Below, in pieces: positions 7,401 to 36,098 of a stretch of DNA of 64,000 nt. This DNA is from Planctomycetota bacterium (lineage in GTDB: Bacteria > Pseudomonadota > Gammaproteobacteria > Eutrophobiales > Eutrophobiaceae). Location: positions 1,360-65,359 of the forward strand of contig JBLIML010000004.1 of NCBI GenBank assembly GCA_047638675.1, written 5' to 3'. Each line of letters begins with the position of its first letter. Within the stretch, counting starts at the first letter, position 1. A program made the translations under genes and the position numbers. The notes below the pieces were generated by a model, which saw only the letters and a list, made by a program, of their open reading frames with translations, did no database searches and was not told the DNA's origin.

Positions 7401-7414
7401 AAGGTGATTACTCG

Positions 7415-8824: not shown

Positions 8825-8841
8825 AAGGTCTTGCTTTCGAC

Positions 8842-10671: not shown

Positions 10672-10685
10672 ATAGTCGTAGGAGA

Positions 10686-12071: not shown

Positions 12072-12076
12072 GAGCC

Positions 12077-13411: not shown

Positions 13412-13702
13412 TTTCTTTGGCTACTATTGGTGATAAATATTTTTCTTAGTCCACAATTTTGAAAATTCATTGGATTAAGCGTGTATTAAAGCTAGTGATA
13501 ATAGCGACAGCCCAAGGAGCAGGAAGTTGCCTGAAAGCTTTAAAGGTAATGTCGAAAGGTCAAAACTGCTTCACAGTAAAGCATCGTCCAGCCCTTGTGC
13601 TAATAATTTAAGCGCCAGGGTGCTGTGGAGCTGTTAAGCCTTCGGTACTCCAGTATCTTAATTCAAGTGTTGTGTAAAACACAAGCGCTAAGGGACAGAA
13701 TT

Positions 13703-13722
13703 ATGAATGAGGGTTCATTCAT
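13703..13722. promoter_or_regulatory. Palindrome ATGAATGA-N4-TCATTCAT, a putative second site for the TetR regulator encoded at 19733-20374
   Basis: 8-4-8 inverted repeat sharing the 16-nt core and spacing of the perfect palindrome at 20453-20480. Lies in the divergent intergenic region between the GS-like/spuC operon and the hydroxylase gene. Confidence 0.5.
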
Positions 13723-13912: not shown

Positions 13913-14479
13913 ATGGATATAGCTGAACCGTTAAAGATACTGGGTAAGGTTGACATCGCCGAACTGCAAAGCCGGATCCTCTCTCTGGATGATGAGGCCT
14001 GGCTTGAGCAGGACTATCGACAAAAAGAATATGATGTACACCGTTACACGGAATCGGTGGTTCTCATATTTACCGATGGCTCTGGTTGGCCAGATATAGA
14101 AGTGAGCAAGCAGCCCGGTTGGGACAAGTTGGCCGATGTCGCCGTGCCGGTTATGCACAATATAGTGGAAAACTTTTATCCCGCTGGCGGTACTATCATC
14201 CGCGCAATGGCGGCCAAACTGCTTCCTGATGGAAAAATAAAACCACACCGGGATTCACATCCTTCCTTTCACCATGGCCACAGAATTCATGTTCCAATCA
14301 CAACAAATTCCAGAGTAAGGTTCATGATAGACGGGCGACCCTATAAATTTGAAGTGGGTCAGGCCTATGAAATAAATAATCAAAAAACGCACAGTGTGAT
14401 GAATAAGGGAAAAGAAGGGAGAATTACCTTTATTTTTGACTATGTCCCACCCAACTTAATTGATCGCTCTGGCCAATAA
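13913..14479 (+). CDS. Aspartyl/asparaginyl beta-hydroxylase-family (cupin, 2-OG/Fe) protein
   Basis: 188 aa. KPHRDSHPSFHHGHRIHVPI and EINNQKTHSVMN fit the His/Asp...His facial triad of this family. Confidence 0.65.
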   Translation: MDIAEPLKILGKVDIAELQSRILSLDDEAWLEQDYRQKEYDVHRYTESVVLIFTDGSGWPDIEVSKQPGWDKLADVAVPVMHNIVENFYPAGGTIIRAMAAKLLPDGKIKPHRDSHPSFHHGHRIHVPITTNSRVRFMIDGRPYKFEVGQAYEINNQKTHSVMNKGKEGRITFIFDYVPPNLIDRSGQ

Positions 14480-14528: not shown

Positions 14529-15371
14529 CTAGGATCCGGCTCTAACAATAAGTTGCTCGTCTGTTTTTCGTTGTTTTTCCTGTCGTATCAATAGCCAACC
14601 TGCAAGCGCGACGCCAATGCTTACGATAGTAATAATGAGAGTGGCCAGGGCGTTTATGTCCGGTGTTACGCCGAGTCGGATCTTGGAATAGATCCACATT
14701 GGTAGCGTACTGGCGCCCGGTCCGGAAACGAAGCTGGCAATAATAAGATCATCGAGAGACAGGGTGAACGCCAGTAGCCAGCCGGATAACATTGCGGGAA
14801 AGATCAAAGGTAAGGTAATGTCCAGCGTTACGCGAAACGGTCTGCCGCCCAGGTCCATCGCGGCTTCTTCCAGTGACTGATCCATCGAGATTAATCGTGA
14901 TTGGACAATGACAGCGACATAAGCCATTGAGAAAGTGATGTGTCCAATCATGATGGTGGTTGCGCCTCGTTCACCGGGCCAACCCGTTAAATCCTGCATA
15001 GTGACAAACAACAAAAGCAAAGATAGCCCTGTGATAACTTCCGGCATCGCCAACGGTGCTGCAATCATCCCGGTAAAAAGCAATCTGCCACGGAAACGGC
15101 CCATTCGAGTCAGCGCAAGGCCCGCCAGTGTCCCCATAAGGGTAGCAAAGGTAGCGCTAATAAGGGCGATACGAAGACTGAGTAAAGTCGCTTCGATTAT
15201 TTGTCTGTTTTCCAATAAAGCCAGGTACCAACGAAATGAAAAGCCGCCCCACACAGATACAATTCTTGAATCATTAAAGGAGTAAACCATTACCAGAATA
15301 ATGGGTACATAAAGGAAGGCATAACCAAAGCAAAGCACAGTGATCAAAAAGCTTGATCGCTTGCTATTCAT
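14529..15371 (-). CDS. Polyamine-type ABC transporter permease (PotI/PotC-like)
   Basis: Multi-TM permease. The likely start, ATG at 15371 (MNSKRSS...), overlaps the upstream stop as ATGA. The longer listed ORF (to 15473) would overlap the upstream gene by about 100 nt. Confidence 0.85.
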   Translation of the reverse strand: MNSKRSSFLITVLCFGYAFLYVPIILVMVYSFNDSRIVSVWGGFSFRWYLALLENRQIIEATLLSLRIALISATFATLMGTLAGLALTRMGRFRGRLLFTGMIAAPLAMPEVITGLSLLLLFVTMQDLTGWPGERGATTIMIGHITFSMAYVAVIVQSRLISMDQSLEEAAMDLGGRPFRVTLDITLPLIFPAMLSGWLLAFTLSLDDLIIASFVSGPGASTLPMWIYSKIRLGVTPDINALATLIITIVSIGVALAGWLLIRQEKQRKTDEQLIVRAGS

Positions 15372-16285
15372 GGTGCGTCCTGTGATTCCGGTGCCTGAAA
15401 GTGTTGAAAAAGCATCATTGGCAAGATCAGGATTAGCAAGAGAATAGTGGCAACGGCTGCTGACAATGGCCAATCACGATTACCGAAAAATTCATCGTAA
15501 AGTGTTCGACCAATCATCAGCGAATCCAGTCCGCCCAGTAAAGATGGAATAACAAATTCCCCCAGGGCGGGAATAAATACCAGCAAACTACCGGCGACGA
15601 TGCCGGGCAGGGAAAGTGGCAGCGTGATATCGCGAAAGATAACCAGCGGTTTCGCACCTAGATCAGCGGCGGCGTCATTCAAATCAAAATCCAGTTTTTC
15701 CAGATTAGCGAAAAGTGGCAGGATCATAAAAGGCAAATAAGAGTAAACAATACCCAGATAGACAGCGAAATCGGTATATAGCAGTTTCAGAGGTTGTTCG
15801 ATAAGTCCCAGTGCGATTAAGGAATTATTGATTAAACCGTGGGTGCTCAACATTCCCATCCAGGCATAGACTCTGAGTAAAAACGATGTCCAGAACGGCA
15901 GGATGATCAGGAACAGAAAAATATTGCGCCATACTGAATCTGCCCGAGCTATAGCGTAAGCCATTGGATATCCAATGAGTAAGCAAAGACAGGTCGATAT
16001 AAAGGCAATTTTTAGTGATTTGAAATAGCTTATCCAGTAAAGATCATCCTCCATCAGGAATCGATAGTTATCCAGAGTGAAATGAAAAGAGATGTTTGCG
16101 TTTTCCGAAAACTCAAGCAATGGTGTAAAAGGCGGGAGCGCCACTACAGGGTCAGAAAAACTGATCTTGAAAATAATGGCGAAAGGCATGAGGAAAAAAA
16201 TCAGAAGCCATAAATAGGGTGCCAAAATAACAAAACGTCGCCACAATATATCCAGCGTTCTTTGTTGAGACAAAGGGGCATTCAT
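15368..16285 (-). CDS. Polyamine-type ABC transporter permease (PotH/PotB-like)
   Basis: 305 aa, six hydrophobic spans, EAA-like loop (DLGAKPLVIFRDITLP). 4-nt overlap with the ATPase gene. Confidence 0.85.
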   Translation of the reverse strand: MNAPLSQQRTLDILWRRFVILAPYLWLLIFFLMPFAIIFKISFSDPVVALPPFTPLLEFSENANISFHFTLDNYRFLMEDDLYWISYFKSLKIAFISTCLCLLIGYPMAYAIARADSVWRNIFLFLIILPFWTSFLLRVYAWMGMLSTHGLINNSLIALGLIEQPLKLLYTDFAVYLGIVYSYLPFMILPLFANLEKLDFDLNDAAADLGAKPLVIFRDITLPLSLPGIVAGSLLVFIPALGEFVIPSLLGGLDSLMIGRTLYDEFFGNRDWPLSAAVATILLLILILPMMLFQHFQAPESQDAP

Positions 16286-17421
16286 TCGGTTAGCACGACG
16301 CTGCTTTGCGCATCCCAGGACAGGTAGACTTCTTCATCCCATTCAAGAACACGTTCAGCTGAGCGCACTCTGTTTTGTGCACTAACCTGAACAATTTTAC
16401 CCGAGGCTGTTTTAACCCTGTAAATTGACAAATTACCGTGATAACCCAGATCCCAGACAACACCTTTTATAACGGACAAACCATTTCCCTGTGGTCGATC
16501 TTTATCTATAGTTATTTTTTCTGGTCTGACGGCAATAGTTAGTTCAGAACCCACTACTGTATCAATAGGATTCACGGCCAGTATTGTTGTCCCCGTTTCC
16601 TTACATTTCATTTCCAGTTCTCTGTCATTGAGTTTACTTACAACACCTTCAAACAAGTTTATGCTGCCAAAAAAATCGGCGACATAGCGATTGACAGGAT
16701 ATTCGTAGATTTGCTTTGGTGTGCCAGTTTGTATCACTTTGCCACTATGCATAACCGCTATACGTGAGGAGAGAATCATGGCTTCATCTTGATCATGGGT
16801 CACAACGATAAAAGTTATGCCGATTTGATCCTGAATATTCATCAATTCAAATTGAGTATGCTCACGCAGTTTTTTATCAAGTGCGGCAAGCGGTTCATCC
16901 AGCAATAAAACTTTTGGTTTTTTAATAAGCGCTCTGGCCAGCGCAACGCGTTGTCGCTGTCCCCCAGATAATTGATGAGGCTTACGTTTTGCAAACTCCG
17001 TCATTTGTACCAGTTCGAGCATTTCCTCTACACGGTTTTGTATTTCCTGTTTTCTTACGCCTTCTTTTTTTAGACCATAGGCAACATTTTTCTCAACCGA
17101 CATATGTGGAAATACTGCATAAGACTGAAACATCATGTTCACCGGGCGCTCGTATGGCGGCACGGTAGTCATGTCAACTCCGTCAATAAGGATCCTGCCA
17201 GCGGCAGGTGTTTCGAATCCGGCAAGCATGCGCAATAATGTGGTCTTACCGCAGCCGGATCCACCGAGAATAGCAAAAAATTCATTCTTATAAATATTGA
17301 GATTTACATTATCCACCGCCAGATAACCATCAAAGTCTTTTGAAATATTTTCAATCTGAATGAAGGGCGCTTCATCCGGAGCCTGCCAGACGGGTTTTAG
17401 TTGAGATGTTGCATCAATCAT
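16282..17421 (-). CDS. Polyamine-type ABC transporter ATPase (PotA/PotG-like)
   Basis: Walker A GGSGCGKTT, signature LSGGQRQRVALARAL, Walker B LLLDEP, C-terminal TOBE-like domain. Confidence 0.9.
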   Translation of the reverse strand: MIDATSQLKPVWQAPDEAPFIQIENISKDFDGYLAVDNVNLNIYKNEFFAILGGSGCGKTTLLRMLAGFETPAAGRILIDGVDMTTVPPYERPVNMMFQSYAVFPHMSVEKNVAYGLKKEGVRKQEIQNRVEEMLELVQMTEFAKRKPHQLSGGQRQRVALARALIKKPKVLLLDEPLAALDKKLREHTQFELMNIQDQIGITFIVVTHDQDEAMILSSRIAVMHSGKVIQTGTPKQIYEYPVNRYVADFFGSINLFEGVVSKLNDRELEMKCKETGTTILAVNPIDTVVGSELTIAVRPEKITIDKDRPQGNGLSVIKGVVWDLGYHGNLSIYRVKTASGKIVQVSAQNRVRSAERVLEWDEEVYLSWDAQSSVVLTE

Positions 17422-17440
17422 TTTGAATGGTTAGCTATCT

Positions 17441-18529
17441 TCAAATTCCGGTTTTCATTCGCGTCCATGCCCTCGAACGTGGACGTTCCTTTTTGGGTGA
17501 GAAAACTACCACAGCTTGCAATCTTTTTCTCACGCTTGCATTGGGGTAAATCCCGGGATCGCTCGTGATCTCAATATCTACAAGCGGAGTAGCGGATTTA
17601 TTGCCGTTAGCATAACCGGTAAAATTGGAGATAGCTGCAATAACTTCCGGGCGTAACAAATAGTTTATAAGAAGGAGTGCATTACCTGGGTGTGGGGCAT
17701 CGGCCGGTATAACCAGTGTGTCGAACCAGTTATGCACACCCCTGGAGAACATGGCAAAACCCAGATTAATATCAATGTCAGCTTCTTTAGCCCGTCTTTT
17801 TGCGACGGAGTAATCACCCGACCAGCTCATGGCTGCACAAACTTCCTTATTCGGCATATCAATCAACATTTTTCCCGAACTGAAATATTTTATATAGGGG
17901 CGAATTGCCTTTACTACCTGCTCGGCCTCTTTCAAGTGTTGTGGTTCGATCGAGTTTGCGTGATGACCAAGATAATTCATTACCGAAGGTATCGTATCAA
18001 TCGAACCGTCCAGTAAACTGACGCCACAATCGCTTATGCGGGACAGAATTTTCGGATCGAAAAAAAAGTCAGCAGTCTCCAATGATACTTCGGGGATACG
18101 TTCCTTTAGCAAGTCAATGTTGAAGGCGACGCCGGTTGTTCCCCACATATAAGGTGCTGCATGTCGATTGTCCGGATCGAAGGCAGATAGCTTATTCAAA
18201 AGCTCGGGATCAAGGTGATGCCAGTTAGAGAGTTTGCTCCGGTCCAGTGTCTGATAAATACCTGCAGTAATTAGTCTTGCGGAAAATGATGCTGAATGGA
18301 GAACAAGATCATAGCCACTTTTACCTGCCAGCAATTTGGCATCTACAATGTCGGTCGTATCGTAAATATCGTAATTGACCTTGATACCGTATTCTTTCTC
18401 AAAATTGCTCAGGGTATCTGGTCCGATATAATCTGCCCAGTTGTAAAAATTAACAATTTTTTCTTCTCCTGCATACAAATTCTGTAGCAGAAAAAAAGTC
18501 GCCAGTAGAATAAATAGATTTCTAATCAT
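17441..18529 (-). CDS. Periplasmic substrate-binding protein, PotF/PotD family
   Basis: 362 aa. Signal peptide MIRNLFILLATFFLLQNLYA. PotF-like N-terminus (NFYNWADYIGPDTL..FEKEYGIKV). Confidence 0.85.
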   Translation of the reverse strand: MIRNLFILLATFFLLQNLYAGEEKIVNFYNWADYIGPDTLSNFEKEYGIKVNYDIYDTTDIVDAKLLAGKSGYDLVLHSASFSARLITAGIYQTLDRSKLSNWHHLDPELLNKLSAFDPDNRHAAPYMWGTTGVAFNIDLLKERIPEVSLETADFFFDPKILSRISDCGVSLLDGSIDTIPSVMNYLGHHANSIEPQHLKEAEQVVKAIRPYIKYFSSGKMLIDMPNKEVCAAMSWSGDYSVAKRRAKEADIDINLGFAMFSRGVHNWFDTLVIPADAPHPGNALLLINYLLRPEVIAAISNFTGYANGNKSATPLVDIEITSDPGIYPNASVRKRLQAVVVFSPKKERPRSRAWTRMKTGI

Positions 18530-18564
18530 TATTAACCTGGCTTTGTAAGCCAGAGATAGTCTGT

Positions 18565-19719
18565 CTACATATCTGCGAGACCGCGTTTTAGCAGGCCTTT
18601 CGCAATAATCATACGCTGTATTTCACTTGTGCCTTCCCAGATACGATCAACACGCAACTCTCTGAAATACCGTTCGGCCAGGTTTTCGCGCATATAGCCG
18701 CGACCACCGAATATTTGTACTGCGCGATCTGCCACTCGATTGGCCATCTCAGATGCATAGAGTTTTGCCATAGAACAACGCGCATGTAATTGTTTCAAGT
18801 CATCACCACGATCATGTGCCTGTGCTGCCTCAAAAGTCATGAGTCGAGCGGCCCAGAGTTCTGTGACGCTGTCTGCCAACATAAATTGAATGGCCTGTTT
18901 GCTTGCCAAAGGCTCACCCTGAATATCACGGTTTTTGGCGAATTCAGCCGCTTCCTCTATCAAACGTGCCGCCGCTCCACAACATCGGGCTGCTATCATC
19001 ATACGTTCGTGACGAAACCAGCTTCTCGAGTACTGCATGCCCTCTCCTTCGGCACCAATGCGCATCGCATCCGCTACGAAGACATCTGTGAAGCGATAAG
19101 TTGGGTGATGAGCGGCGTATGTATGACTGAATAAAGGGTTGGCGATAACTTCTACGCCCGCTGTATTAATATCAAGAAAGAAGAGCGCGTGTTCGCCATT
19201 TTCTAATTTAGCCTGTATAAAAAAATAGTCGGCAAGATTGGCACTGGTTACGTACCATTTTTCACCGTTGATGGTATAACCACCTTTACACTTCGTTGCC
19301 CTTGTATTTATCGTCTCGTTTGAACCTGCCTCCGCTTCAGTGATGGCGTAGCACTCTTTTCGAGAGCTATCTATGAGAGGCAATATATAATTTTCTATCT
19401 GCTGTTTGCTGCAGGCTTCAAACATCCACTGTTGCGCTTCGGAAAAACACCAGCATAAGGCATTGGTTACTTTTCCAAGTTGCTCCCAAACCGCAACTTG
19501 TTCCGTCATACCAAGTTCGAGACCGCCGAACTTTTTCGGCACATCCATTTTGCTAAAACCCAGTTCTATCGCAAGTAAGTTGTGTCGTTTACTTATCTTC
19601 TCTGGCAGCACGCCTCCGTTAAATTCGGCCTCAATTTCCCAGGGCTTTAACTCTTCTTCGGTAAACTTGAAAGCTTTCCCCTGCCATTCTCTGGCGTTAT
19701 CACTTAATACGAGATCCAT
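18565..19719 (-). CDS. Acyl-CoA dehydrogenase family protein
   Basis: ACAD C-terminal motifs (QIFGGRGYMRE, IWEGTSEIQR). The preferred start, ATG at 19719 (MDLVLSD), lies 13 nt after the tetR stop. The listed ORF start at 19791 would overlap tetR. Confidence 0.85.
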   Translation of the reverse strand: MDLVLSDNAREWQGKAFKFTEEELKPWEIEAEFNGGVLPEKISKRHNLLAIELGFSKMDVPKKFGGLELGMTEQVAVWEQLGKVTNALCWCFSEAQQWMFEACSKQQIENYILPLIDSSRKECYAITEAEAGSNETINTRATKCKGGYTINGEKWYVTSANLADYFFIQAKLENGEHALFFLDINTAGVEVIANPLFSHTYAAHHPTYRFTDVFVADAMRIGAEGEGMQYSRSWFRHERMMIAARCCGAAARLIEEAAEFAKNRDIQGEPLASKQAIQFMLADSVTELWAARLMTFEAAQAHDRGDDLKQLHARCSMAKLYASEMANRVADRAVQIFGGRGYMRENLAERYFRELRVDRIWEGTSEIQRMIIAKGLLKRGLADM

Positions 19720-19732
19720 AAGGTCTAATCGC

Positions 19733-20374
19733 TTAGTTGTTACTGAAATGATTTGGAAACATAACGGCGAGATAATCAAAACATATCTCACAGGCTTCTT
19801 TACGATTTATCGCGTTTGGCGTCATTAAAAGATCCAGCCACAGACCGTTTACGAGGGCAGATAAACCAACCGCAAATGACTGTGATTTGATATGCTTGTA
19901 GGCAGGGTCTTTTTTCAATTCGTCACATAGTTTTGCCAGCACATTATTGGCTATTTCGTCACTTTTCGCACAAATCTGCAAGTAAGTTGGTCTGGACTTT
20001 GCTTCGCCCCAATAAGCGAACCATACGGCGAGTTTTTTCCTGTCACAAACTTTTGCACTAAAATCGAGGTTCACCAATGCGGCCATTTTTTCTTCCGCTG
20101 AATCGCCTGCTTTGTTTACTGCCCTGGTGCAAATGTCCTGATACTCATTCGAAAGATATAACAAAGTCTCTTCAAGCAATTTATCTTTGCTCTGGAAATG
20201 CAGATTCACGATACCCAGGCTCAAGCCAGCATCCTTTGTGACATCGGCCATCGTCGTTCCGGCAATACCACGATTAGCGATACAATTTATCGTGGACTTG
20301 ATGAGCTGCTCGCGTCGACGTTCTTTGCCCGTGACTCTGCTATTTGAGACTGCCTTTTGCGCTGCAATTACCAT
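19733..20374 (-). CDS. TetR/AcrR-family transcriptional regulator
   Basis: N-terminal HTH: CIANRGIAGTTMADVTKDAGLSLGIVNLHFQSKDKLLEETL. 213 aa. Confidence 0.9.
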   Translation of the reverse strand: MVIAAQKAVSNSRVTGKERRREQLIKSTINCIANRGIAGTTMADVTKDAGLSLGIVNLHFQSKDKLLEETLLYLSNEYQDICTRAVNKAGDSAEEKMAALVNLDFSAKVCDRKKLAVWFAYWGEAKSRPTYLQICAKSDEIANNVLAKLCDELKKDPAYKHIKSQSFAVGLSALVNGLWLDLLMTPNAINRKEACEICFDYLAVMFPNHFSNN

Positions 20375-20452: not shown

Positions 20453-20480
20453 AAATATGAATGAATAATCATTCATATTT
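20453..20480. promoter_or_regulatory. Perfect 12-4-12 palindrome AAATATGAATGA-ATAA-TCATTCATATTT, the probable TetR operator
   Basis: Read directly from the sequence. It lies 79 nt from the tetR start and 61 nt from the divergent aminotransferase start. Confidence 0.7.
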
Positions 20481-20540
20481 GTAGACAATTTATCTGGCGC
20501 GTGGCATGCTGACAGCCCAATCCAAACCAATGGAGGCTAT

Positions 20541-21884
20541 ATGAGTCGTGTACACACCAAATCAAATGCACAGTTTCAAAAGGCAATAAAACGCCTCCCG
20601 CTTGGCGTTTCTTCCAATTTTCGCTATTGGGGCGAAGACAAAACTATTTATGCGAAACGCGGTAAAGGTGGCCGCTTGTGGGATATCGATGATAACGAAT
20701 ACATCGATTACCGACTTGGCTATGGCCCGGCGATCCTTGGCTATGCAGATGAACGTGTCGATCAAGCCGCTCGTGATGGTATGAATGTTGGCGGCGTGTT
20801 TGCGCTCTCAACTGAACTCGAATATACGGTCGCCGATCGGATATGCAAAATGGTGTCATCAGCTGAGCTGGTGCGATTTTCCATATCCGGTACGGAGGCC
20901 GTCATGGCAGCATTACGGCTGGCTCGAGCTTACAGTGGCAAAGATGAATACGTATTGGTAGAGGGCGGTTATCACGGCGTCTTCAGTGAAGGTTTGTGGT
21001 ATTCAGAAGTTGAAGATTGGAAGGTGAGTGAGGGTGATCCGGAATTAATGCCATACAGTGAAGGGGTACCCGAACTTTACGGCCACCTTATTCATAGTGT
21101 CCCCTTAAACGATGCTAATCGTGTTGAGCGTTTGTTTCAGCGACATGCTGGCAAAATCGCGGCTTTTTTGATTGAACCCATGATGGGAAATTGTTGTTCC
21201 ATCACCGCTGAACAGCAATACCTGAAAGACGTACGTGAATTATGTACAAAGTATGATGTGATTTTGATCATCGATGAAGTTAAGACTGGTTTCCGGGTGG
21301 CTAAAGGTGGTGTTCAGGAGCTTTTAGGCGTTGATGCTGACCTCTCAACTTTTGCGAAATCAATGGCCAATGGATACCCGATTTCAGCCTTGGTGGGTCA
21401 GGAGGAGATCATGAGAATGATTGGTAACGGCGTTGTACATGGCGGCACCTATACGGCTCACTCTGTTTCAATAGCAGCGGCAAACAAGACACTTGAAATT
21501 CTCGATGAAACGCCTGCCCTGGCCAATATTGCTGAATATGGAATTAAACTTCGTGATGGCCTGGATAAAATATTGTCACGCCGAGGTATTCCGCATTGTT
21601 TTGTTGGCCATCCAGCTATGTCAGGTATGTTTTTTAGTGCAACGCCACCTAGTAACTACCGTGATTGGGTGAAAACCGATTACACATTTTACGACACGCT
21701 CGCGCCGAACTTGCATGATCTGGGTATTCTGGTTGAACCGGATTCTCGTGAACCCTGGTTCATGTGTGAAGCGCACGATGATAAGTGCTTTGACGAAACT
21801 ATTTTGAAATTTGAACAGGCAGTCGATATAACTATCGAGCAACTTCAACACACAACTAACAATCCGGTACAAAAAGTTAATTGA
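20541..21884 (+). CDS. Class III aminotransferase (glutamate-1-semialdehyde aminomutase-like)
   Basis: 447 aa. GYGPAILGY, SGTEAVMAALRLAR, IIDEVKTGFR, FAKSMANGYP. Confidence 0.85.
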   Translation: MSRVHTKSNAQFQKAIKRLPLGVSSNFRYWGEDKTIYAKRGKGGRLWDIDDNEYIDYRLGYGPAILGYADERVDQAARDGMNVGGVFALSTELEYTVADRICKMVSSAELVRFSISGTEAVMAALRLARAYSGKDEYVLVEGGYHGVFSEGLWYSEVEDWKVSEGDPELMPYSEGVPELYGHLIHSVPLNDANRVERLFQRHAGKIAAFLIEPMMGNCCSITAEQQYLKDVRELCTKYDVILIIDEVKTGFRVAKGGVQELLGVDADLSTFAKSMANGYPISALVGQEEIMRMIGNGVVHGGTYTAHSVSIAAANKTLEILDETPALANIAEYGIKLRDGLDKILSRRGIPHCFVGHPAMSGMFFSATPPSNYRDWVKTDYTFYDTLAPNLHDLGILVEPDSREPWFMCEAHDDKCFDETILKFEQAVDITIEQLQHTTNNPVQKVN

Positions 21885-21893
21885 GATGAAAAC

Positions 21894-23510
21894 ATGAAAA
21901 AGTATGACGCCATAGTGATTGGTGCTGGCCATAACGGCCTCACCAATGCTGCTTACTTAGCCAAGTCCGGTTTGAAGGTATTGGTAGTTGAAAAAAATCC
22001 CTGGATAGGCGGTGCGTCCGTGAGTCGTTCTCTCTATGAAGGCTGGACTTATTCGAATTGCTCCTATGTATGCAGTTTATTTCGCCCGGAAATTTATCGA
22101 GATCTTGAACTGGCGCGTCACGGTTTGCAGGTTATTCCTTATGAAGGTGGTCTTACCTTTATGCAAAATGGAGATTACTTCGGTAACTATCCGGATGCTG
22201 AACGCCATCATCGAGAAATTGCGAGACACTCCGCGCGTGATGCCAATGCTTATGACCGTTATAGCGCCGATGTGTCGAGGCAAACACGTCTTATTAGACC
22301 TTTTTTAATGAGAACACCCCCCGATCCTACCTCTTTCAAACCTGGTGATGTGATGGAGCTGATTCACATGATCAAGACTTACTGGGATCTCGGCGAGGAA
22401 ATTCTCTATGACACGATCCGTTTCTGGACGATGAGCGTGGGTGATTTTCTTGATGGGTATTTCGAATCCAATATTCTAAAAGCGCATCTTGCGGGCTCCG
22501 GCATTATCGGTACGGCGCTTGGTGTCTACTCACCGGGTACAGCTTACGTATTATTACACCATTATATGGGGGATGTGGACGGCAGTATTGGTTCATGGGG
22601 TTTTGCCCGTGGAGGAATGGGTTCGATTGCTAAAGCCCTGGCTGGTTCTTTCGAGTCATTTGGTGGTGAGATCATGGTCGATGCGGGTGTCGATAAAATT
22701 CTTGTTAAAGATGAAAAAGTGACTGGCGTGGTGCTCGAGAATGGCGATGAGCATTATGCGGACATTGTTATATCTAATCTGGATCCGAAGCGTACCTTTC
22801 TCAATATTATGAATGAAGAGGATTTGCCAGCAGATGTCGTTAAGAAGGCGAAGAATTTCAAGATTAGAGGCTCTTCTGGAAAACTGAATATTTCTCTGGA
22901 TGGCATGCCTTCTTTCAAAGCAATCCCTGATGGCCATGAATTGTTGAAAGCCGATTTTCATTTTATCGATTCAATGGAACGCATGGAACGCGCCTACGAC
23001 GACTGGAAGAACGGCATGTGGTCGAGAGATCCCTATGTAGATGCCTTGATTCCTACTCAGGTCGATCCGACCATGGCGCCTCCCGGGAAACACATGATGA
23101 CGGTGTTCGTTCAATACTGCCCACCAAAAGTAAAAGATGAGGAATGGACAGATGAGAAGCGTGACGCTTTTGGCCAGACAGTGATCGATCAAATTTCAGA
23201 ATATAGCCCCAACTTCAAAGATCTGATTCTTCATGCAGAAATTCGTACGCCACGAGAGATTGAAAATGAAGTGGGTCTTACCGAAGGCAACATATTTCAG
23301 GGAGAGCTGACCATGGATCAACTCTTGTTTAATCGACCTTTTCCTGGATATGCGCAATACCGGGGTCCGGTAAAAGGAATGTATATGTCCGGATCCGGCA
23401 CGCATCCGGGGGGCGGTGTTATGGGCGCGCCTGGCGTTAATTCCGCAAGAGAGATCCTCAGAGATCTAAATCGAAAGAATATTACTCCGGAGGCCTTCAG
23501 CGATGAGTAA
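21894..23510 (+). CDS. NAD(P)/FAD-dependent oxidoreductase, phytoene-desaturase-like (COG1233/PYROXD2-like), copy 1
   Basis: 538 aa. YDAIVIGAGHNGLTNAAYLAKSG, GGASVS, SLFRPEIYRDLELARHGL, C-terminal GSGTHPGGGVMG. Confidence 0.8.
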   Translation: MKKYDAIVIGAGHNGLTNAAYLAKSGLKVLVVEKNPWIGGASVSRSLYEGWTYSNCSYVCSLFRPEIYRDLELARHGLQVIPYEGGLTFMQNGDYFGNYPDAERHHREIARHSARDANAYDRYSADVSRQTRLIRPFLMRTPPDPTSFKPGDVMELIHMIKTYWDLGEEILYDTIRFWTMSVGDFLDGYFESNILKAHLAGSGIIGTALGVYSPGTAYVLLHHYMGDVDGSIGSWGFARGGMGSIAKALAGSFESFGGEIMVDAGVDKILVKDEKVTGVVLENGDEHYADIVISNLDPKRTFLNIMNEEDLPADVVKKAKNFKIRGSSGKLNISLDGMPSFKAIPDGHELLKADFHFIDSMERMERAYDDWKNGMWSRDPYVDALIPTQVDPTMAPPGKHMMTVFVQYCPPKVKDEEWTDEKRDAFGQTVIDQISEYSPNFKDLILHAEIRTPREIENEVGLTEGNIFQGELTMDQLLFNRPFPGYAQYRGPVKGMYMSGSGTHPGGGVMGAPGVNSAREILRDLNRKNITPEAFSDE

Positions 23511-25071
23511 GCAATACGACGCCACAATCATAGGGGCGGGTCACAACGGTCTGGTCTGTGCCACTTATCTCGCCAAAGCCGGGCAGAAGGTATTGATCCT
23601 GGAGGCAAATGAACAAGTTGGCGGTGCGGCAATCACACGTGAGTTCGCTAGTGGATTCTCTGTTTCTGCCTGTGCACATTTACTGCATTTGTTACACCCC
23701 CAGATAATTACTGATCTGTCCCTGCCGAGTCACGGTTTGAAAATGGCTGCGCAGGGTTTGAGTACTATCGCCTTGTCAGCAGACGGTGAGCATCTTACTC
23801 TTGATAGAGACACCATTAGTGGAGCGGGAATTTCAAATAGCGATCAAACTGCCTATCGCGATTTCCAAACCAGGCTCCGACGTTTTGCCAGGATTGTTCA
23901 AAAGACTTTCATGACGCGTCCGCCACGTCTTGTGCATAAAGACAGAAAAGATTTGATGACTCTTGCGAAGCTGGGTCTTAGCGTACGATTGTTGGGAAAA
24001 GAAGATATGCGCGAGCTGCTTCGCATTGGCGCAATAAATATCTATGACGTATTGCAGGAAGACTTTGAAAGTGAGCTGTTAAAAGGTGCACTTGGTTTTG
24101 ATGCGGTGCTGGGCAGTAATATGGGACCACGCTCTCCTAACTCGGTACTCTCCTATCTCTATCGTCTTACTGGACAACTTAATGGAAATGATACTGCAAT
24201 TTCAGTTCCAGCGGGTGGTATGGGCGCAGTTACAAAGGCATTGCGCAAGGCCGCTGAAGCTGCTGGTGTTGAAATTAGAACTGGCACACGAGTCAAACAG
24301 ATTATTCTGGATGTCGACAATGTTACCGGGGTAGAAACGACAGAAGGTGAAAAAATAAATTGCGGCCTGGTCGTTTCCAATGCAGATCCGAAGACAACCT
24401 TTTTAAAACTTATCGGTGCAAGAAACATTGAAACCGGCTTCGCTCGACGCGTTGATAATATACGTATGAAGGGCAAAGCGGCCAAACTACATTTGGCTTT
24501 GGATGGCGTTCCCAGTTTTGAAGGACTGCCTGAAAAGCTGCTTGGTAATCGTCTTGTGATCGCACCTACTCTGCAATACATTGAGCAGGCTTTTGATCAT
24601 TCAAAATATGGCGAATATTCAAATGAGCCTGCCATTGAAATCAGCATTCCATCGATTCATGATGATAGCCTCGCGCCGCCAAGCAGGCATGTGCTCTCTG
24701 CCGTGGTTCAATACGCACCTTATGAATTACGTACTGGCTGGGATTCGCATCGCGATACTTTCAAACAAGTGGTGATAGACAAAATCGCAGAGTATGCCCC
24801 CGGAATAAAAGATCAAATAACTGCGTCAGAGTTATTGGTGCCAGCAGACATAGAAAGGGAATTTAATATTCATGGCGGGCATTGGCATCATGGTGAATAC
24901 ACGCTTGATCAATTTATGATGCTGCGCCCAGTACCCGGTGCTGCACAATATTCCACACCAATAAATGGTTTGTACCTTTGTGGGGCGGGTTCGCATCCCG
25001 GTGGCGGTGTAATGGGTCTCGCCGGACGTAATGCCTCAACAGAAATAATAAATCGGGAGCACAAGTCATGA
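23503..25071 (+). CDS. NAD(P)/FAD-dependent oxidoreductase, phytoene-desaturase-like (COG1233/PYROXD2-like), copy 2
   Basis: 522 aa paralogue of the preceding gene (YDATIIGAGHNGLVCATYLAKAG, GAGSHPGGGVMG). The start overlaps the upstream stop by 8 nt. Confidence 0.8.
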   Translation: MSKQYDATIIGAGHNGLVCATYLAKAGQKVLILEANEQVGGAAITREFASGFSVSACAHLLHLLHPQIITDLSLPSHGLKMAAQGLSTIALSADGEHLTLDRDTISGAGISNSDQTAYRDFQTRLRRFARIVQKTFMTRPPRLVHKDRKDLMTLAKLGLSVRLLGKEDMRELLRIGAINIYDVLQEDFESELLKGALGFDAVLGSNMGPRSPNSVLSYLYRLTGQLNGNDTAISVPAGGMGAVTKALRKAAEAAGVEIRTGTRVKQIILDVDNVTGVETTEGEKINCGLVVSNADPKTTFLKLIGARNIETGFARRVDNIRMKGKAAKLHLALDGVPSFEGLPEKLLGNRLVIAPTLQYIEQAFDHSKYGEYSNEPAIEISIPSIHDDSLAPPSRHVLSAVVQYAPYELRTGWDSHRDTFKQVVIDKIAEYAPGIKDQITASELLVPADIEREFNIHGGHWHHGEYTLDQFMMLRPVPGAAQYSTPINGLYLCGAGSHPGGGVMGLAGRNASTEIINREHKS

Positions 25072-26255
25072 GTGTAAGAGAAGCTGATAAACGTGTATTA
25101 ACTACGCCATTTTATTCACGCACTTCTGCGCTATGTGAAACCAATCTTTGGTCGCCCTGGAAAGCCTATACCACGGTCGATTGCTATTCCGTGCTGTTCG
25201 AAGAATATTTTGCAATTCGTAATGCGACTGCCGTGTTTGATCTTACGCCAATGACCAAGTATCGAATAAGCGGTATTGATGGGCTCGCCTATCTTGATAA
25301 GTTAATGACTCGCAAGATGAGTAAACTCACGCCAGGACGCGTTATGTACGGGGCGTGGTGTAACGACTTGGGTCATGTTCTGGATGATGGAACCGTTTTT
25401 CACCTGGAGGAAAATGTATGGCGTTTATGTTCGCAGGAACGTCATATGGATTGGTTGCAAGCAACGGCGATGGGCTTCGAAGTTGAAATTGAAGATGAGA
25501 CTGACGATGTTGTTGGTCTGGCAGTACAGGGACCCACTTCCTGCCAAACATTAAAATCGATGGGTCTGCAGGGTGTTGAAAATATTAAACCATTCCAGAT
25601 GAGGTCCTTCCCTTTCGCAAACTCAGAATTGCTGGTGTCACGAACTGGATTTACCGGTGATCTTGGCTATGAACTCTGGGTCACGCCCGATCTTGCCGAG
25701 AAACTATGGGACGCACTGTTTGAAGCAGGCAAATCTCATGGCATTCTTCCCATCGGTTCCCACGCTCTTGATATAGCACGTATTGAAGCCGGCTTTATTC
25801 AGGCTGATGTCGATTTCGTACCCGCATTGAACGTCGTGCGTGCAGGTAGAGGACGATCGCCCTTTGAGTTGGGTCTGGACTGGCTGGTTCATTTCGACAA
25901 ACCAATATTTAATGGACGAAAGGCCCTGTTAAAAGAGAAAGAAACGGGTTCTCGATATCGTTTTGTGCGTCTTGACGTTGAAGGTAACAAGCCTGCAAAC
26001 GACTCGTTTGTTTACAATGGTAAAAAGGAAATTGTTGGGCATGTGACTTCAGCAACGTGGTCGCCCAGCGCAAAAAAGAATATTGCATTGGCTTCAGTGG
26101 AAATGCCCTGGGGTCGCCCGGAAGATGAATTATATGCGGAGATCTATTACAACCGCGAATTACAGTGGAATCGTCTCATGGCGCGTTGCCATGTCGTGGA
26201 AGGGGCGTTTTTTGATCCACCTCGACGACGTGAAACACCTCCCCTGGATTATTGA
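25068..26255 (+). CDS. GcvT-family (aminomethyltransferase fold, folate-binding) protein
   Basis: 395 aa. RTGFTGDLGYELW, ARIEAGF, SATWSP. ATGA overlap with the upstream gene. No gcvH or gcvP nearby. Confidence 0.8.
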   Translation: MSVREADKRVLTTPFYSRTSALCETNLWSPWKAYTTVDCYSVLFEEYFAIRNATAVFDLTPMTKYRISGIDGLAYLDKLMTRKMSKLTPGRVMYGAWCNDLGHVLDDGTVFHLEENVWRLCSQERHMDWLQATAMGFEVEIEDETDDVVGLAVQGPTSCQTLKSMGLQGVENIKPFQMRSFPFANSELLVSRTGFTGDLGYELWVTPDLAEKLWDALFEAGKSHGILPIGSHALDIARIEAGFIQADVDFVPALNVVRAGRGRSPFELGLDWLVHFDKPIFNGRKALLKEKETGSRYRFVRLDVEGNKPANDSFVYNGKKEIVGHVTSATWSPSAKKNIALASVEMPWGRPEDELYAEIYYNRELQWNRLMARCHVVEGAFFDPPRRRETPPLDY

Positions 26256-26359
26256 TTCATTCATACGGGAAAAGAAAAACCGGGATGTAAAACTACCAGA
26301 GAGTAATCGCTGGTCCTTATGCCTAATCATTTCATCTCTATCTTCATCGTCACATAACC

Positions 26360-28495
26360 ATGCCTCATAAGCTAGATTCATTGTTGCGACCCCGGTCTAT
26401 TGCGGTAGTGGGTGCAAGCCGACGTGATGGCGTTGTTGGCAATATGATTCTGAAGAATCTATTAAGAGGAGAGTATCCAGGTAATCTCTATGCAGTTAAC
26501 CCCGGCTATAACGAAGTAGAGGGGCTTGCCTGTTTCCCATCACTTTCTGAATTACCTGAAGCGGTTGAGCACGTAATTTTTGCCGTCAATGATGAGCGCA
26601 TTGAAAATGCACTTGATTCGGCAATAGCGCATGGAATTAAAGCTGGCACAATTTTCTCATCACTAATTCTCGCAAATGATACCTCACCTTTATTGAAAGA
26701 GAGGATATATAAAAAAGCGAAGGAGGCAAATTTGTTACTCTGCGGTGCCAATGGAATGGGTTACTACAACTTTACCGAGAGTATTTGGGCCTGCGGATTT
26801 GACACCCGCTGTCACCGTAAACAGGGTAATGTGACGTTAATCAGCCAGTCTGGTGCGGGTATGTCGGGAATTCTGGATGTAGATGAACGACTCGATTTTA
26901 ATTTTGCCGTATCTACCGGTCAGGAATTGATGGTGTCAGCGGAAGACTATCTTGATTACGCTTTGGATCAAAAGGAGACGCGTGTCATCGGCTTCTTTAT
27001 GGAAACCAGCCGTAGCCCTGATAAGCTCATTGCGGCTTTTGAAAAAGCCAATGAACGAAAAATCCCGATTGTCGTGATTAAAGTTGGACGCACGGCGCTT
27101 GCTTCAAAACTTGCTGTGTCTCATTCCGGTGCGATGGCAGGCGCTGACAATGTTTATAACGCGATTTTTGACCGTTATGGCGTGCAGCGAGTTGAGGACA
27201 TGGAAGAGCTTGCGACTACACTGATAATGTTTGCTCAACCACATTCAGTCGGCCCCGGAGGATTTGTTAGCCTTCATGATTCGGGCGGGGAGCGTCAATT
27301 GATTATTGACCTGGCTGATAAGGCGGATGTCACACTTGCCGATTTATCTGCCCAAACAATTCGCAAACTGGAAGGCTTGCTCGATCCTGGATTACCCGCG
27401 GTAAACCCGCTGGATGCATGGAGTGTAGGTGGCCCCGATTATGATAAAACAATGGCAGAATGTTTTGCTAGTTTGTTGTGTGATCCAGGCGCCGCTCTTG
27501 GCGCCGTTGTACATGACCGTGCGCCCTTCGGTCATATCTATCCGGAATACATTGGCTATTTACGCAGTGCGCACAAGGCCTCAGGTAAACCGGTTTTCCT
27601 GGTGTCGAACAGACAAGGCACAGGTGAGGATCCGATGGTGCTTGAATCCACCCGTGAGGGATTTCCAGTGCTTGACGGCGTTAGCGCTTTTCTGAGTGGC
27701 GTAAAGTGTCTGATGGCCTATCGGGACTTTCTTGAGCGGCCTCAGATGATTTTGCCCACTTTATCAAATGATACGATTAGCAGCTGGCGGACCAGATTTA
27801 GGGAAGGTCAGACAATTACAGAAAATGTGGCCAGTAGTTTTCTGGCAGCGTGCGGCCTGCCGATGAACAAATCAGTGTTGATTGAAACAGAGGCTGAGCT
27901 AGTAAACTCAATAGCAGAAGTCAGCTATCCTCTTGCCTTGAAAACAGCCAATCCAGAGATAAAGCATAAAACCGAACAAAAAGGGGTCATTCTTGATATC
28001 CAGAATGAGAAAGAATTATTGGAAGTCTATTCCGACATGTCATCGCGACTAGGTGGCAAAGTTCTTCTCTCGCCGATGATAGATTCGCCAGGCATTGAAA
28101 TGATACTGGGTATCGCCAGTGATGAGCAGTTTGGACCCATGATTGTAATGGGCTTTGGTGGGGTGTATACGGAAGTATTGGAGGACATAGTTATTCTCTT
28201 TCCTCCTTTTGATGCACAGTATGCTTTCCACAATCTTCGATGCTTGAGGATGAGGAAAATACTGGACGAAGTAAGAGGCAAGCCAGCATGGGATTTATCT
28301 GCATATTGTGAAGCCGCTGCTATTCTTTCCGTTGTCGCCCTTATGTTTAAAGATGAAATTATTGAACTGGATATTAACCCGGTGAAGGTTATGGAACATG
28401 GTTGCCTCGGATTAGATGCGCTTGTCGTCACAACAATCAAAGAGACAACTCGTCTTGCTGAATTACGGATGGAATCGAAAAACAGTTATGCTTGA
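26360..28495 (+). CDS. ADP-forming acyl-CoA synthetase (acetate-CoA ligase family; CoA-binding, ligase-CoA and ATP-grasp domains fused)
   Basis: 711 aa. PRSIAVVGASRR CoA-binding N-terminus, central SHSGAMAG phosphohistidine-loop-like segment, C-terminal ATP-grasp. Confidence 0.8.
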   Translation: MPHKLDSLLRPRSIAVVGASRRDGVVGNMILKNLLRGEYPGNLYAVNPGYNEVEGLACFPSLSELPEAVEHVIFAVNDERIENALDSAIAHGIKAGTIFSSLILANDTSPLLKERIYKKAKEANLLLCGANGMGYYNFTESIWACGFDTRCHRKQGNVTLISQSGAGMSGILDVDERLDFNFAVSTGQELMVSAEDYLDYALDQKETRVIGFFMETSRSPDKLIAAFEKANERKIPIVVIKVGRTALASKLAVSHSGAMAGADNVYNAIFDRYGVQRVEDMEELATTLIMFAQPHSVGPGGFVSLHDSGGERQLIIDLADKADVTLADLSAQTIRKLEGLLDPGLPAVNPLDAWSVGGPDYDKTMAECFASLLCDPGAALGAVVHDRAPFGHIYPEYIGYLRSAHKASGKPVFLVSNRQGTGEDPMVLESTREGFPVLDGVSAFLSGVKCLMAYRDFLERPQMILPTLSNDTISSWRTRFREGQTITENVASSFLAACGLPMNKSVLIETEAELVNSIAEVSYPLALKTANPEIKHKTEQKGVILDIQNEKELLEVYSDMSSRLGGKVLLSPMIDSPGIEMILGIASDEQFGPMIVMGFGGVYTEVLEDIVILFPPFDAQYAFHNLRCLRMRKILDEVRGKPAWDLSAYCEAAAILSVVALMFKDEIIELDINPVKVMEHGCLGLDALVVTTIKETTRLAELRMESKNSYA

Positions 28496-29321: not shown

Positions 29322-29326
29322 TTATT

Positions 29327-30718: not shown

Positions 30719-30796
30719 TTCTTGTGCGCGGACAGTTGGTTCAATTTGAACCATGCTGATCAATTTTAATAACTGAATCACTACTGTCTTTTTCTA

Positions 30797-33917: not shown

Positions 33918-34171
33918 GGTTAATCTGCCCCTTGAATTTAGGATAGGCGTGGACGCTTTATGCCTGTATACGTAATATACTAACCGATGTTGTAATTATT
34001 ACCAAATGAGTTCTTTGCCAATAGTTTAAGTAATTTAACAACTTAACACGACATCTAGAACTTAATTCAACATAAGGTGTGGTATTAATACTACATATAG
34101 GAGATCACTTTACCTCAAACTGAAGTGCACGCGTATGTGAGCCAATTATTTTTAAATAGAAAGCCGTTTTT

Positions 34172-35119: not shown

Positions 35120-35165
35120 ATCATCTGAACAAGCTAATCACGCTGAAAATTTTTGAGGAACGTAT

Positions 35166-36068: not shown

Positions 36069-36098
36069 GGTTGTCAGGAAGGATATGACGATGCAAAC

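What the first reader, a model, noticed from the sequence alone, without database searches (positions are those of the whole stretch)
20453..20480. Perfect 28-nt palindromic operator whose core recurs upstream of the spu-like operon, suggesting one regulon over two clusters
Seen in the sequence:
- AAATATGAATGA-ATAA-TCATTCATATTT (12-4-12, perfect) sits between tetR and the divergent aminotransferase operon.
- The same core and spacing, ATGAATGA-GGGT-TCATTCAT, occurs at 13703-13722. That is the divergent region between the GS-like/spuC/AOR/amidase/oxidase operon and the beta-hydroxylase gene.
- A 16-nt specified match is very unlikely by chance in 64 kb, on the order of 1e-5.
- A lone half-site TCATTCAT lies at 26257-26264, just after the GcvT-like stop and before the acyl-CoA synthetase gene.

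Established knowledge: TetR repressors bind palindromes in their own divergent promoter regions.

Inference: the TetR encoded at 19733-20374 co-controls both catabolic clusters, about 25 kb in total.
Basis: partly seen in the sequence, partly recalled or inferred. Interest (0 to 1): 0.6.

Follow-up and report, generated by a model that had tools for sequence, protein, structure and literature searches.

The report
Shared TetR operator linking two clusters
Two copies of one palindromic DNA site, conserved next to the same TetR-type regulator gene in dozens of uncultured marine and soil bacteria, very probably place two neighbouring amine-breakdown gene clusters under one switch; this is a solid but ordinary regulon prediction.

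Summary
AAATATGAATGA-ATAA-TCATTCATATTT lies at 20453-20480, and the same 8-4-8 core at 13703-13722. These are the only two matches in the window.

- In 80 species-level genomes carrying an orthologous TetR (45-72% identity), the motif sits in the tetR/aminotransferase promoter region in about 70.
- All 82 strong sites in 1.32 Mb lie in promoter regions.
- Where the operon has moved 8.5 kb from tetR, the site moved with it.
- The second site is conserved in six lineages, between the hydroxylase gene and the GS-like/aminotransferase/AOR operon. In a sister clade it lies upstream of a TonB receptor gene that heads that same operon.

- The lone half-site at 26257 is at chance level.
- The operator is not new. 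It fits the Bacillus FadR (YsiA) box WTGAATGAMTANTCATTCAN, which binds two dimers in structure 5GPC.
- It is not a betI box, and the regulator is BetI-like but fails the BetI cut-offs.

Binding, the sign of regulation and the inducer are inferred.

Verdict: new member of a known kind, moderate interest.

The parts
20453..20480 (.). Operator O1: perfect 12-4-12 palindrome. Its core ATGAATGA-ATAA-TCATTCAT (20457-20476) fits the FadR/YsiA box WTGAATGAMTANTCATTCAN.
   Evidence: 33.2 bits. The arms are invariant in alignment A3 of eight species. The box consensus is from PMC5397183.
13703..13722 (.). Operator O2: ATGAATGA-GGGT-TCATTCAT. The arms are the same, the spacer is off-consensus, and the score is lower.
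   Evidence: 26.2 bits. The arms are invariant in six species while the flanking intergenic DNA has diverged.
19733..20374 (-). tetR: a 213-aa TetR-family regulator with a BetI-type C-terminal domain, the presumed binder of O1 and O2.
   Evidence: Pfam TetR_N and TetR_C_6. It falls below both BetI equivalog cut-offs. The recognition helix AGLS[LQ]GI[VI]NLHF is near-invariant in the orthologues aligned; 74 of the 80 loci carry the motif.
14529..19791 (-). The rest of the tetR operon: acyl-CoA dehydrogenase, PotF-like binding protein, ABC ATPase and two permeases.
   Evidence: The gene order is conserved in L004, L006, L052, L206 and L209.
20541..31462 (+). Divergent operon under O1: class-III aminotransferase, two PYROXD2-like flavoproteins, GcvT-like protein, ADP-forming acyl-CoA synthetase, enoyl-CoA hydratase, GS-like enzyme and hydrolase.
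   Evidence: The operator stays upstream of the aminotransferase even when the operon lies 8.5 kb from tetR (L018, L019, L024, L038).
6114..13411 (-). Second cluster under O2: GS-like enzyme, class-III aminotransferase, aldehyde:ferredoxin oxidoreductase, amidase and DAO-type flavoprotein.
   Evidence: An orthologous operator lies upstream in L004, L006, L206 and L209, and upstream of the TBDR-GS-like-AT-AOR-DAO operon in L205, L211 and L212.
13913..14479 (+). Asp/Asn beta-hydroxylase-like gene, divergent from the second cluster. It shares the O2 intergenic region and may be a co-target.
   Evidence: It is adjacent to O2 in the six lineages with this layout. Hydroxylase genes in L008, L013, L014, L063, L067 and L070 have no site.
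20482..20510 (+). Candidate promoter of the aminotransferase operon: TAGACA (20482-20487), 17 nt, then TGnCATGCT (20502-20510). The -35-like box begins 2 nt after O1.
   Evidence: Read from alignment A3. T(G/A)GACA-17 nt-TGnCATGCT is kept in the window, L006 and L052. The consensus scan did not list it. This is inference only.
13655..13684 (-). Candidate promoter towards the GS-like operon: TTGTGT (13684-13679), 18 nt, then TAAGAT (13660-13655). This block is conserved and starts 18 nt beyond O2.
   Evidence: The block GCTTGT..ACACAA..TAAGAT is conserved in six species. This is inference only.
26257..26264 (+). Lone half-site TCATTCAT. It is not part of the system.
   Evidence: The octamer occurs at chance frequency, and no weight-matrix hit of 8 bits or more lies here.

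Best explanation
The 213-aa BetI-like TetR regulator (19733-20374) binds both palindromes.

- O1 lies between its own operon (tetR, acyl-CoA dehydrogenase, PotF-type ABC importer) and the divergent aminotransferase/flavoprotein/GcvT/acyl-CoA operon.
- O2 lies between the GS-like/aminotransferase/AOR/amidase/oxidase operon and the beta-hydroxylase-like gene.
- The operator is of the FadR/YsiA type. Each arm is a tandem ATGA-ATGA, so the site holds two overlapping 16-bp inverted repeats offset by 4 bp. It is probably occupied by two dimers, as in the Bacillus halodurans FadR-DNA structure.
- The most likely mode is repression at or next to the -35 boxes of back-to-back promoters. Repression would be relieved when the regulator binds the pathway's substrate or an acyl-CoA intermediate.
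- O2 has an off-consensus spacer (GGGT). It is probably the weaker site and would be released first.

Shown here: the sites, their non-random occurrence, their conservation, and their co-occurrence with this TetR.

Inferred: physical binding, two-dimer stoichiometry, the sign of regulation and the inducer.
For: - Both sites exist and are the only matches in the window.
- In 80 genomes with an orthologous TetR, 60 have a site with at most 2 mismatches near tetR, against 8 of 1560 background windows.
- The weight matrix gives 82 sites of 14 bits or more in 1,318,901 bases. All are in promoter regions, against 0.25 expected from shuffles.
- In L018, L019, L024 and L038 the aminotransferase operon is co-directional and about 8.5 kb from tetR. 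The site sits upstream of the operon there, not of tetR.
- O2 orthologues lie between the hydroxylase and GS-like genes in L004, L006, L052, L206 and L209. The arms are invariant, the spacers vary and the flanks have diverged.
- In the sister clade the GS-like/AT/AOR/DAO genes follow a TonB receptor gene, and the operator lies upstream of that receptor gene (L019, L024, L038=L205, L211, L212; in L210 a transposase-like gene is inserted between them).
- In L035 a second site lies between two aldehyde dehydrogenase genes.
- The recognition helix is near-invariant in the loci that carry the motif. The two Rhodospirillales orthologues with a changed helix (AGLSRGIVNFHF) carry TTGGCTGA-N4-TCAGTCAA instead.
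- O1 fits the experimentally defined FadR box, and 5GPC shows two dimers on it.
- In a motif-first metagenome scan, 65 of 120 exact sites have a TetR gene starting within 300 nt.
Against: - There is no binding, expression or transcription-start data. The only RNA hit was one 213-nt contig inside the aminotransferase gene.
- The own genome could not be scanned, so other sites, or a paralogous TetR that uses the same box, cannot be excluded.
- The box is shared by at least three TetR subfamilies.
- My consensus-only promoter guesses put the operator centre at about -50 (aminotransferase), -61 (tetR) and -64 (GS-like). That is upstream of the -35 boxes rather than over the core promoter.
- The closest solved relative, 3E7Q, was docked with palmitoyl-CoA as a model of PvrA, which is reported as a positive regulator.
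- O2 is not universal. It is absent in L204 and L208 (TBDR-GS-like operon with a different upstream region; in L204 the cluster is 116 kb from tetR) and in L048 and L070.
Confidence: 0.75

Rival explanations
1. The same TetR binds both sites but activates, or acts in both directions, instead of simply repressing. For example, it could recruit RNA polymerase from about -60 when loaded with an acyl-CoA.
For: Candidate promoters read from the alignments lie downstream of the operator, with operator centres near -50 to -64. The best solved relative, 3E7Q (E 9e-23), was docked with palmitoyl-CoA as a model of PvrA. PvrA binds palmitoyl-CoA, and loss of pvrA lowers target expression.
Against: The promoter positions are consensus guesses only. 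The scan tool found no promoter at O1. Most TetR regulators, including FadR on this same box and BetI, are repressors whose footprints reach the -35 box. In the co-directional clade the site centre is only 67-91 nt from the start codons, which fits overlap with a core promoter.
Confidence: 0.14
2. Another TetR encoded elsewhere in the genome, of the FadR/YsiA type or the soil-type group, is the real or an additional binder, because it uses the same box.
For: The identical motif sits next to YsiA-type (TetR_C_4) and other TetR genes in metagenomes. The own genome could not be searched.
Against: The motif tracks this TetR subfamily and its operons across about 70 species. It changes where the recognition helix changes. 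The only other TetR-like sequence in the window is a decayed 72-codon fragment without a start codon.
Confidence: 0.07
3. Site 2 is a chance or relic palindrome with no regulatory role, and only the tetR-proximal site is functional.
For: Its spacer is off-consensus and its score is lower, 26.2 against 33.2 bits. It lies 292 nt from the GS-like start codon. Some genomes have the GS-like cluster without any site.
Against: No shuffle gave two matches. The arms are invariant in six lineages within otherwise diverged spacer DNA. An equivalent site precedes the same operon in the sister clade.
Confidence: 0.04

Closest known systems
FadR (YsiA) of Bacillus subtilis and B. halodurans: a TetR-family, acyl-CoA-responsive repressor with the FadR box (PMC5397183; PDB 5GPC)
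   Same: The operator sequence is the same. The box WTGAATGAMTANTCATTCAN fits O1 exactly, and the crystallised site ATGAATGAATACTCATTCAT differs from O1 only in the spacer. Both regulators are autoregulated, both sit beside acyl-CoA-metabolising genes, and both have several boxes per regulon. The tandem ATGA-ATGA arm explains binding by two dimers offset by 4 bp.
   Different: The protein is only distantly related (5gpa/5gp9, E about 1e-6; NCBIfam FadR model 27.7 bits against a cut-off of 200). It has a BetI-type (TetR_C_6) ligand domain, not a YsiA-type (TetR_C_4) one. The host is a Gammaproteobacterium, and the regulon is an amine importer plus an amine-to-acyl-CoA pathway, not beta-oxidation.
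BetI, the choline-responsive TetR repressor of the bet genes
   Same: It shares the TetR_C_6 architecture and gives the best NCBIfam hits. It sits in a divergent promoter, and its operator reaches the -35 box. Public annotations call the orthologues 'BetI'.
   Different: The scores fall below both equivalog cut-offs (113.4 against 118; 111.8 against 201.3). The betI box is ATTGACG*CGTCAAT, not TGAATGA-N4-TCATTCA. No bet genes are adjacent.
PvrA (PA2957) of Pseudomonas aeruginosa, for which structure 3E7Q served as the docking model
   Same: It is the closest solved relative (E 9.2e-23 over residues 17-200). It is a TetR regulator linked to acyl-CoA metabolism with an acyl-CoA ligand.
   Different: PvrA is reported as a positive regulator of fatty-acid and phospholipase genes. 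Its motif is given only in a figure and could not be compared. That 3E7Q is PvrA is my inference from the paper's docking section.
QacR-type binding by two dimers
   Same: A long (28-bp) palindrome is occupied by two dimers on overlapping half-sites (cited within PMC5397183).
   Different: The sequence, ligand class and regulon are unrelated. Stoichiometry was not tested here.

Membership tests
TetR family transcriptional regulators | N-terminal TetR_N helix-turn-helix domain plus an all-helical C-terminal ligand domain, about 200 aa | tested here: met
   PF00440 (38.6 bits) and PF13977 TetR_C_6 (60.2 bits), 213 aa.
TetR family transcriptional regulators | Palindromic operator in its own, often divergent, promoter region | tested here: met
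   O1 lies 92 nt from the tetR ATG and 74 nt from the aminotransferase ATG. It is conserved in about 70 of 80 orthologous loci.
TetR family transcriptional regulators | Physical binding to the operator, released by a small ligand | not testable with these tools
   This needs EMSA or footprinting and a ligand screen.
BetI (choline-binding repressor of bet genes) | Score above the curated equivalog cut-off | tested here: not met
   NF001978 gives 113.4 bits against a cut-off of 118. TIGR03384 gives 111.8 against 201.3.
BetI (choline-binding repressor of bet genes) | betI box (ATTGACG*CGTCAAT-like) and adjacent betA/betB/betT genes | tested here: not met
   The operator is TGAATGA-N4-TCATTCA. The betI box is from PMC12442346. 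The neighbours are an aminotransferase, flavoproteins, an acyl-CoA dehydrogenase and an ABC importer.
FadR/YsiA-type TetR (Bacillales fatty-acid regulator) | FadR box WTGAATGAMTANTCATTCAN | tested here: met
   O1 reads ATGAATGA-ATAA-TCATTCAT and fits every specified position. O2 fits the arms but not the TA of the spacer.
FadR/YsiA-type TetR (Bacillales fatty-acid regulator) | YsiA-like C-terminal domain (PF08359) or a score above the NCBIfam FadR cut-off | tested here: not met
   There is no TetR_C_4 hit. NF053878 gives 27.7 bits against a cut-off of 200.
FadR/YsiA-type TetR (Bacillales fatty-acid regulator) | Acyl-CoA as the releasing ligand, and two dimers per box | not testable with these tools
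   This is an analogy only.

The most novel reading that the evidence does not exclude
A widespread, misannotated 'BetI' subfamily of Gammaproteobacteria uses the Firmicute FadR box. It may sense an acyl-CoA or amine intermediate. It ties four modules into one inducible pathway for a still unidentified amine: a PotF-type importer, a PYROXD2-like/GcvT module, a gamma-glutamylation/tungsten-type AOR module and, in some lineages, a TonB receptor. If so, the regulon boundary and its inducer would give a direct experimental handle on the substrates of the PYROXD2-like flavoproteins and of an AOR in aerobes.
Probability: 0.3. Interest if true: 0.6.

Novelty: new member of a known kind. Interest (0 to 1): 0.4.

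Why it matters
The shared operator says that two orphan catabolic clusters respond to one signal and so probably belong to one pathway. One cluster carries PYROXD2-like flavoproteins with a GcvT-like protein. The other has an AOR embedded in a gamma-glutamyl-amine operon. This narrows the search for their substrate: whatever releases this TetR is the substrate or an intermediate.

The result also gives a compact reporter (PO1 or PO2 plus tetR) for inducer screening in a laboratory host.

It further shows that automatic 'BetI, repressor of bet genes' labels on this subfamily are wrong. The FadR box is a much more widely used TetR operator than the Bacillales literature suggests.

Tried and rejected
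- **Own-genome scan.** I substituted 1.32 Mb of orthologous loci, 120 motif-first metagenome loci and 9 GS-like gene loci.
- **RNA evidence for transcription starts.** Only one metatranscriptome run held any of the region, as a single 213-nt contig inside the aminotransferase gene. It was uninformative.
- **Sigma-54 promoter at TGGCATGCTGACAGC (20502-20516).** Rejected. The GG is not kept in L052 (TGTCAT), and the block fits a 17-nt-spaced TGnCATGCT extended -10 after T(G/A)GACA.
- **Riboswitch or structured leader in the 292-nt GS-like leader.** There was no Rfam match at E up to 1, and the folding z-score was +0.40.
- **Lone half-site at 26257 as a third site.** It is at chance level.
- **Canonical betI box.** The sequence is different.
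- **TonB receptor gene in the window (31566-33917) as a regulon member, as in the sister clade.** No site of 8 bits or more lies upstream.
- **Second TetR in the window.** Only a decayed fragment is present.
- **Consensus promoter scans.** They gave nothing at O1 and only AT-rich noise at O2.

Full report
**1. Observation**

The + strand at 20453-20480 reads AAATATGAATGA ATAA TCATTCATATTT, a perfect 12-4-12 inverted repeat. At 13703-13722 it reads ATGAATGA GGGT TCATTCAT.

- Searching ATGAATGA-N4-TCATTCAT with up to 2 mismatches finds only these two places in 64 kb. None of 100 dinucleotide-preserving shuffles gave two matches (mean 0.05).
- The lone half-site at 26257 is not significant. TCATTCAT occurs 8 times, 4 of them inside the two palindromes, against 4.3 expected.

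**2. Gene context**

| Coordinates | Strand | Genes |
|---|---|---|
| 6114-13411 | - | GS-like enzyme, class-III aminotransferase, aldehyde:ferredoxin oxidoreductase (AOR), amidase, DAO-type flavoprotein |
| 13913-14479 | + | Asp/Asn beta-hydroxylase-like protein |
| 14529-20374 | - | tetR, acyl-CoA dehydrogenase, PotF-like binding protein, ABC ATPase, two permeases |
| 20541-31462 | + | GSA-like aminotransferase, two amine-oxidase-fold flavoproteins, GcvT-like protein, ADP-forming acyl-CoA synthetase, enoyl-CoA hydratase, second GS-like enzyme, hydrolase |

- O1 lies in the 166-nt tetR/aminotransferase spacer.
- O2 lies in the 501-nt spacer between the GS-like gene and the hydroxylase gene.
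- The regulator has TetR_N plus a BetI-type TetR_C_6 domain. It scores below both BetI equivalog cut-offs (113.4 against 118; 111.8 against 201.3) and far below the Bacillus FadR model (27.7 against 200).

**3. Is the site tied to this TetR?**

A profile of 36 homologues retrieved 80 loci from species-representative genomes. These are mostly uncultured Gammaproteobacteria, with TetR identity of 45-72%.

- The exact or near-exact motif lies just upstream of tetR in most loci.
- 60 of 80 loci have at most 2 mismatches within -400 to +120 of the ORF start, against 8 of 1560 random windows from the same loci. Several apparent misses were ORF-start artefacts.
- A weight matrix built from these sites finds 82 separate sites of 14 bits or more in 1,318,901 bases. 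Shuffles give 0.25 hits per run on average.
- Every one of these sites lies in a promoter region.

Three further observations argue for a functional link rather than shared ancestry of a spacer.

- *The site follows the operon.* In L018, L019, L024 and L038 the aminotransferase operon is co-directional with tetR and about 8.5 kb upstream of it. There the motif sits 67-74 nt before the aminotransferase start, not before tetR.
- *Only the arms are conserved.* In alignments of the spacers, only the arms are invariant, while the spacer and flanks vary.
- *Helix and site change together.* The recognition helix AGLS[LQ]GI[VI]NLHF is near-invariant in the orthologues aligned, 74 of which carry the motif. 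Two Rhodospirillales orthologues have AGLSRGIVNFHF and carry a palindrome of the same 8-4-8 geometry with different bases, TTGGCTGA-N4-TCAGTCAA. These two genomes are closely related, so this covariation is suggestive only.

**4. Is the second site real?**

- Orthologues of O2 lie between the hydroxylase gene and the GS-like gene in L004, L006 and L052.
- After I retrieved loci through GS-like homologues, O2 orthologues also appeared in L206 and L209.
- Across the six lineages the arms TGAATGAA/TCATTCAT are invariant. The spacer varies (ACCC, ATTT, ATAC, ATGC) and the surrounding intergenic DNA has largely diverged.
- In a sister clade the GS-like, aminotransferase, AOR and DAO genes directly follow a TonB-dependent receptor gene. 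The operator sits about 80-240 nt upstream of that receptor gene in L019, L024, L038 (=L205), L211 and L212.
- In L210 the site is retained, but a transposase-like gene has been inserted between it and the receptor gene.
- In L035 a second site lies between two divergent aldehyde dehydrogenase genes. These are functional counterparts of the AOR.

The link is not universal.

- L204 and L208 have the receptor/GS-like operon with different upstream genes and no site. In L204 the operon is 116 kb from tetR on the same contig.
- More distant GS-like genes in L048 and L070 also lack a site.

The peripheral regulon therefore varies between lineages, while the core (tetR plus the aminotransferase operon) stays constant.

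**5. What kind of operator is it?**

- Only about 12 of these loci are this system.
- 65 of the 120 have a TetR-family gene starting within 300 nt of the site, and 25 more are too close to a locus end to judge.
- Of ten neighbours sampled, six are YsiA-type (TetR_C_4). Four belong to another TetR group whose site is ATGAATGAACGTTCATTCAT.

The literature explains this.

- The Bacillus subtilis FadR (YsiA) box is WTGAATGAMTANTCATTCAN.
- The B. halodurans FadR-DNA crystal used ATGAATGAATACTCATTCAT. It shows two dimers on two 16-bp inverted repeats offset by 4 bp, with each monomer reading ATGA(A/G)T (PMC5397183).
- O1 fits that box at every specified position. O2 fits the arms but not the central TA.
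- The tandem ATGA-ATGA arm also explains the secondary hits shifted by 4 nt in my scans.
- The canonical betI box, ATTGACG*CGTCAAT, is different (PMC12442346).

So the DNA element is a known operator type. Here it is used by a BetI-like, not YsiA-like, TetR.

**6. Mechanism**

- *Shown:* two conserved FadR-type boxes in the two divergent control regions, co-evolving with this TetR.
- *Inferred:* the TetR binds both, probably as two dimers per box, and is released by a ligand.

The sign of regulation is uncertain. From the alignments I read three candidate promoters:

| Target | Elements | Basis |
|---|---|---|
| Aminotransferase operon | TAGACA (20482-20487), 17 nt, TGnCATGCT | |
| tetR | TTGCTA, 16 nt, TAATGT | |
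| GS-like operon | TTGTGT (13684-13679), 18 nt, TAAGAT (13660-13655) | |

- These would put the operator immediately upstream of, or abutting, the -35 boxes, with centres at about -50, -61 and -64.
- A complex of two dimers with a footprint of 30-40 bp could still occlude both -35 boxes of back-to-back promoters.
- These promoter positions are consensus guesses. The scan tool gave nothing usable.
- The closest solved relative, 3E7Q, was docked with palmitoyl-CoA as a model of PvrA, a reported positive regulator.
- I therefore keep activation or dual control as a rival at about 0.14.

The inducer is unknown.

- BetI-type domains bind a quaternary amine.
- FadR and PvrA bind acyl-CoAs.
- The regulon contains both an amine importer and an acyl-CoA synthetase, dehydrogenase and hydratase.

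**7. Other checks**

- The only other TetR-like sequence in the window is a decayed fragment at 42385-42600(-) with no start codon.
- There is no Rfam family and no unusual fold in the long GS-like leader.
- RNA runs were uninformative.

**8. Verdict**

The half-site is dropped, and the operator is identified as the known FadR/YsiA box.

This is a new member of a known kind: a TetR regulator with a palindromic operator and a small catabolic regulon. Interest is moderate. Its main value is that it joins two orphan clusters into one inducible pathway and provides a reporter for finding the substrate.

Noticed in passing
window 42385-42600 (-): A 72-codon stop-to-stop frame resembles a TetR N-terminal domain (phmmer E 2e-5 against the local TetR). 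It has no start codon and overlaps the start of a 234-aa ORF (41709-42413) whose function I did not check. It is probably a decayed regulator gene.
   Followed up: partly
window 13655-13700 (-); L004, L006, L052, L206 and L209 equivalents: Next to O2 is a second conserved block, GCTTGT-N6-ACACAA...TAAGAT. In the window it contains the perfect small palindrome TTGTGT-AAA-ACACAA. It could be the -35/-10 of the GS-like operon or the site of a second regulator.
   Followed up: partly
window 13412-13600: The window has about 190 nt of extra leader between O2 and the GS-like start codon compared with L004, L006 and L209, which have about 100-116 nt. There is no Rfam match and no significant fold.
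   Followed up: yes
L205, L211, L212, L204, L208, L210 (relatives); window 31566-38114: In the sister clade the order is unknown protein, TPR-sulfotransferase, TonB receptor, GS-like, aminotransferase, AOR, DAO, all co-directional and directly after the ABC importer. In the window the homologous TonB receptor and TPR-sulfotransferase genes lie on the other side of the aminotransferase operon and have no operator. The locus has been rearranged.
   Followed up: partly
L210 3899-5471: A transposase-like gene (HTH_23/28/29) is inserted between the conserved operator and the TonB receptor/GS-like operon. This may uncouple the operon from the regulator in that lineage.
   Followed up: no
L092, L115, L136, L156 and about 30 further soil metagenome loci: The perfect 20-bp palindrome ATGAATGAACGTTCATTCAT recurs in contigs of about 55% GC, directly upstream of a separate TetR group with only a weak TetR_C_6 match. 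This looks like a third subfamily using the FadR-type box.
   Followed up: partly
window 18565-19791, 25068-29321: The regulon combines a GcvT-family protein, a CoA ligase, an acyl-CoA dehydrogenase and an enoyl-CoA hydratase. This mirrors the enzyme classes of DMSP demethylation (DmdA to DmdD), and the GcvT-like protein does hit the DMSP demethylase model, though below its cut-off. It may hint at a demethylation followed by a C3-acyl-CoA route for a nitrogen analogue.
   Followed up: no
orthologues in public records: JGI and NCBI name many members of this subfamily 'BetI / repressor of bet genes'. They fail the BetI cut-offs, have no bet neighbours and carry a different operator.
   Followed up: yes
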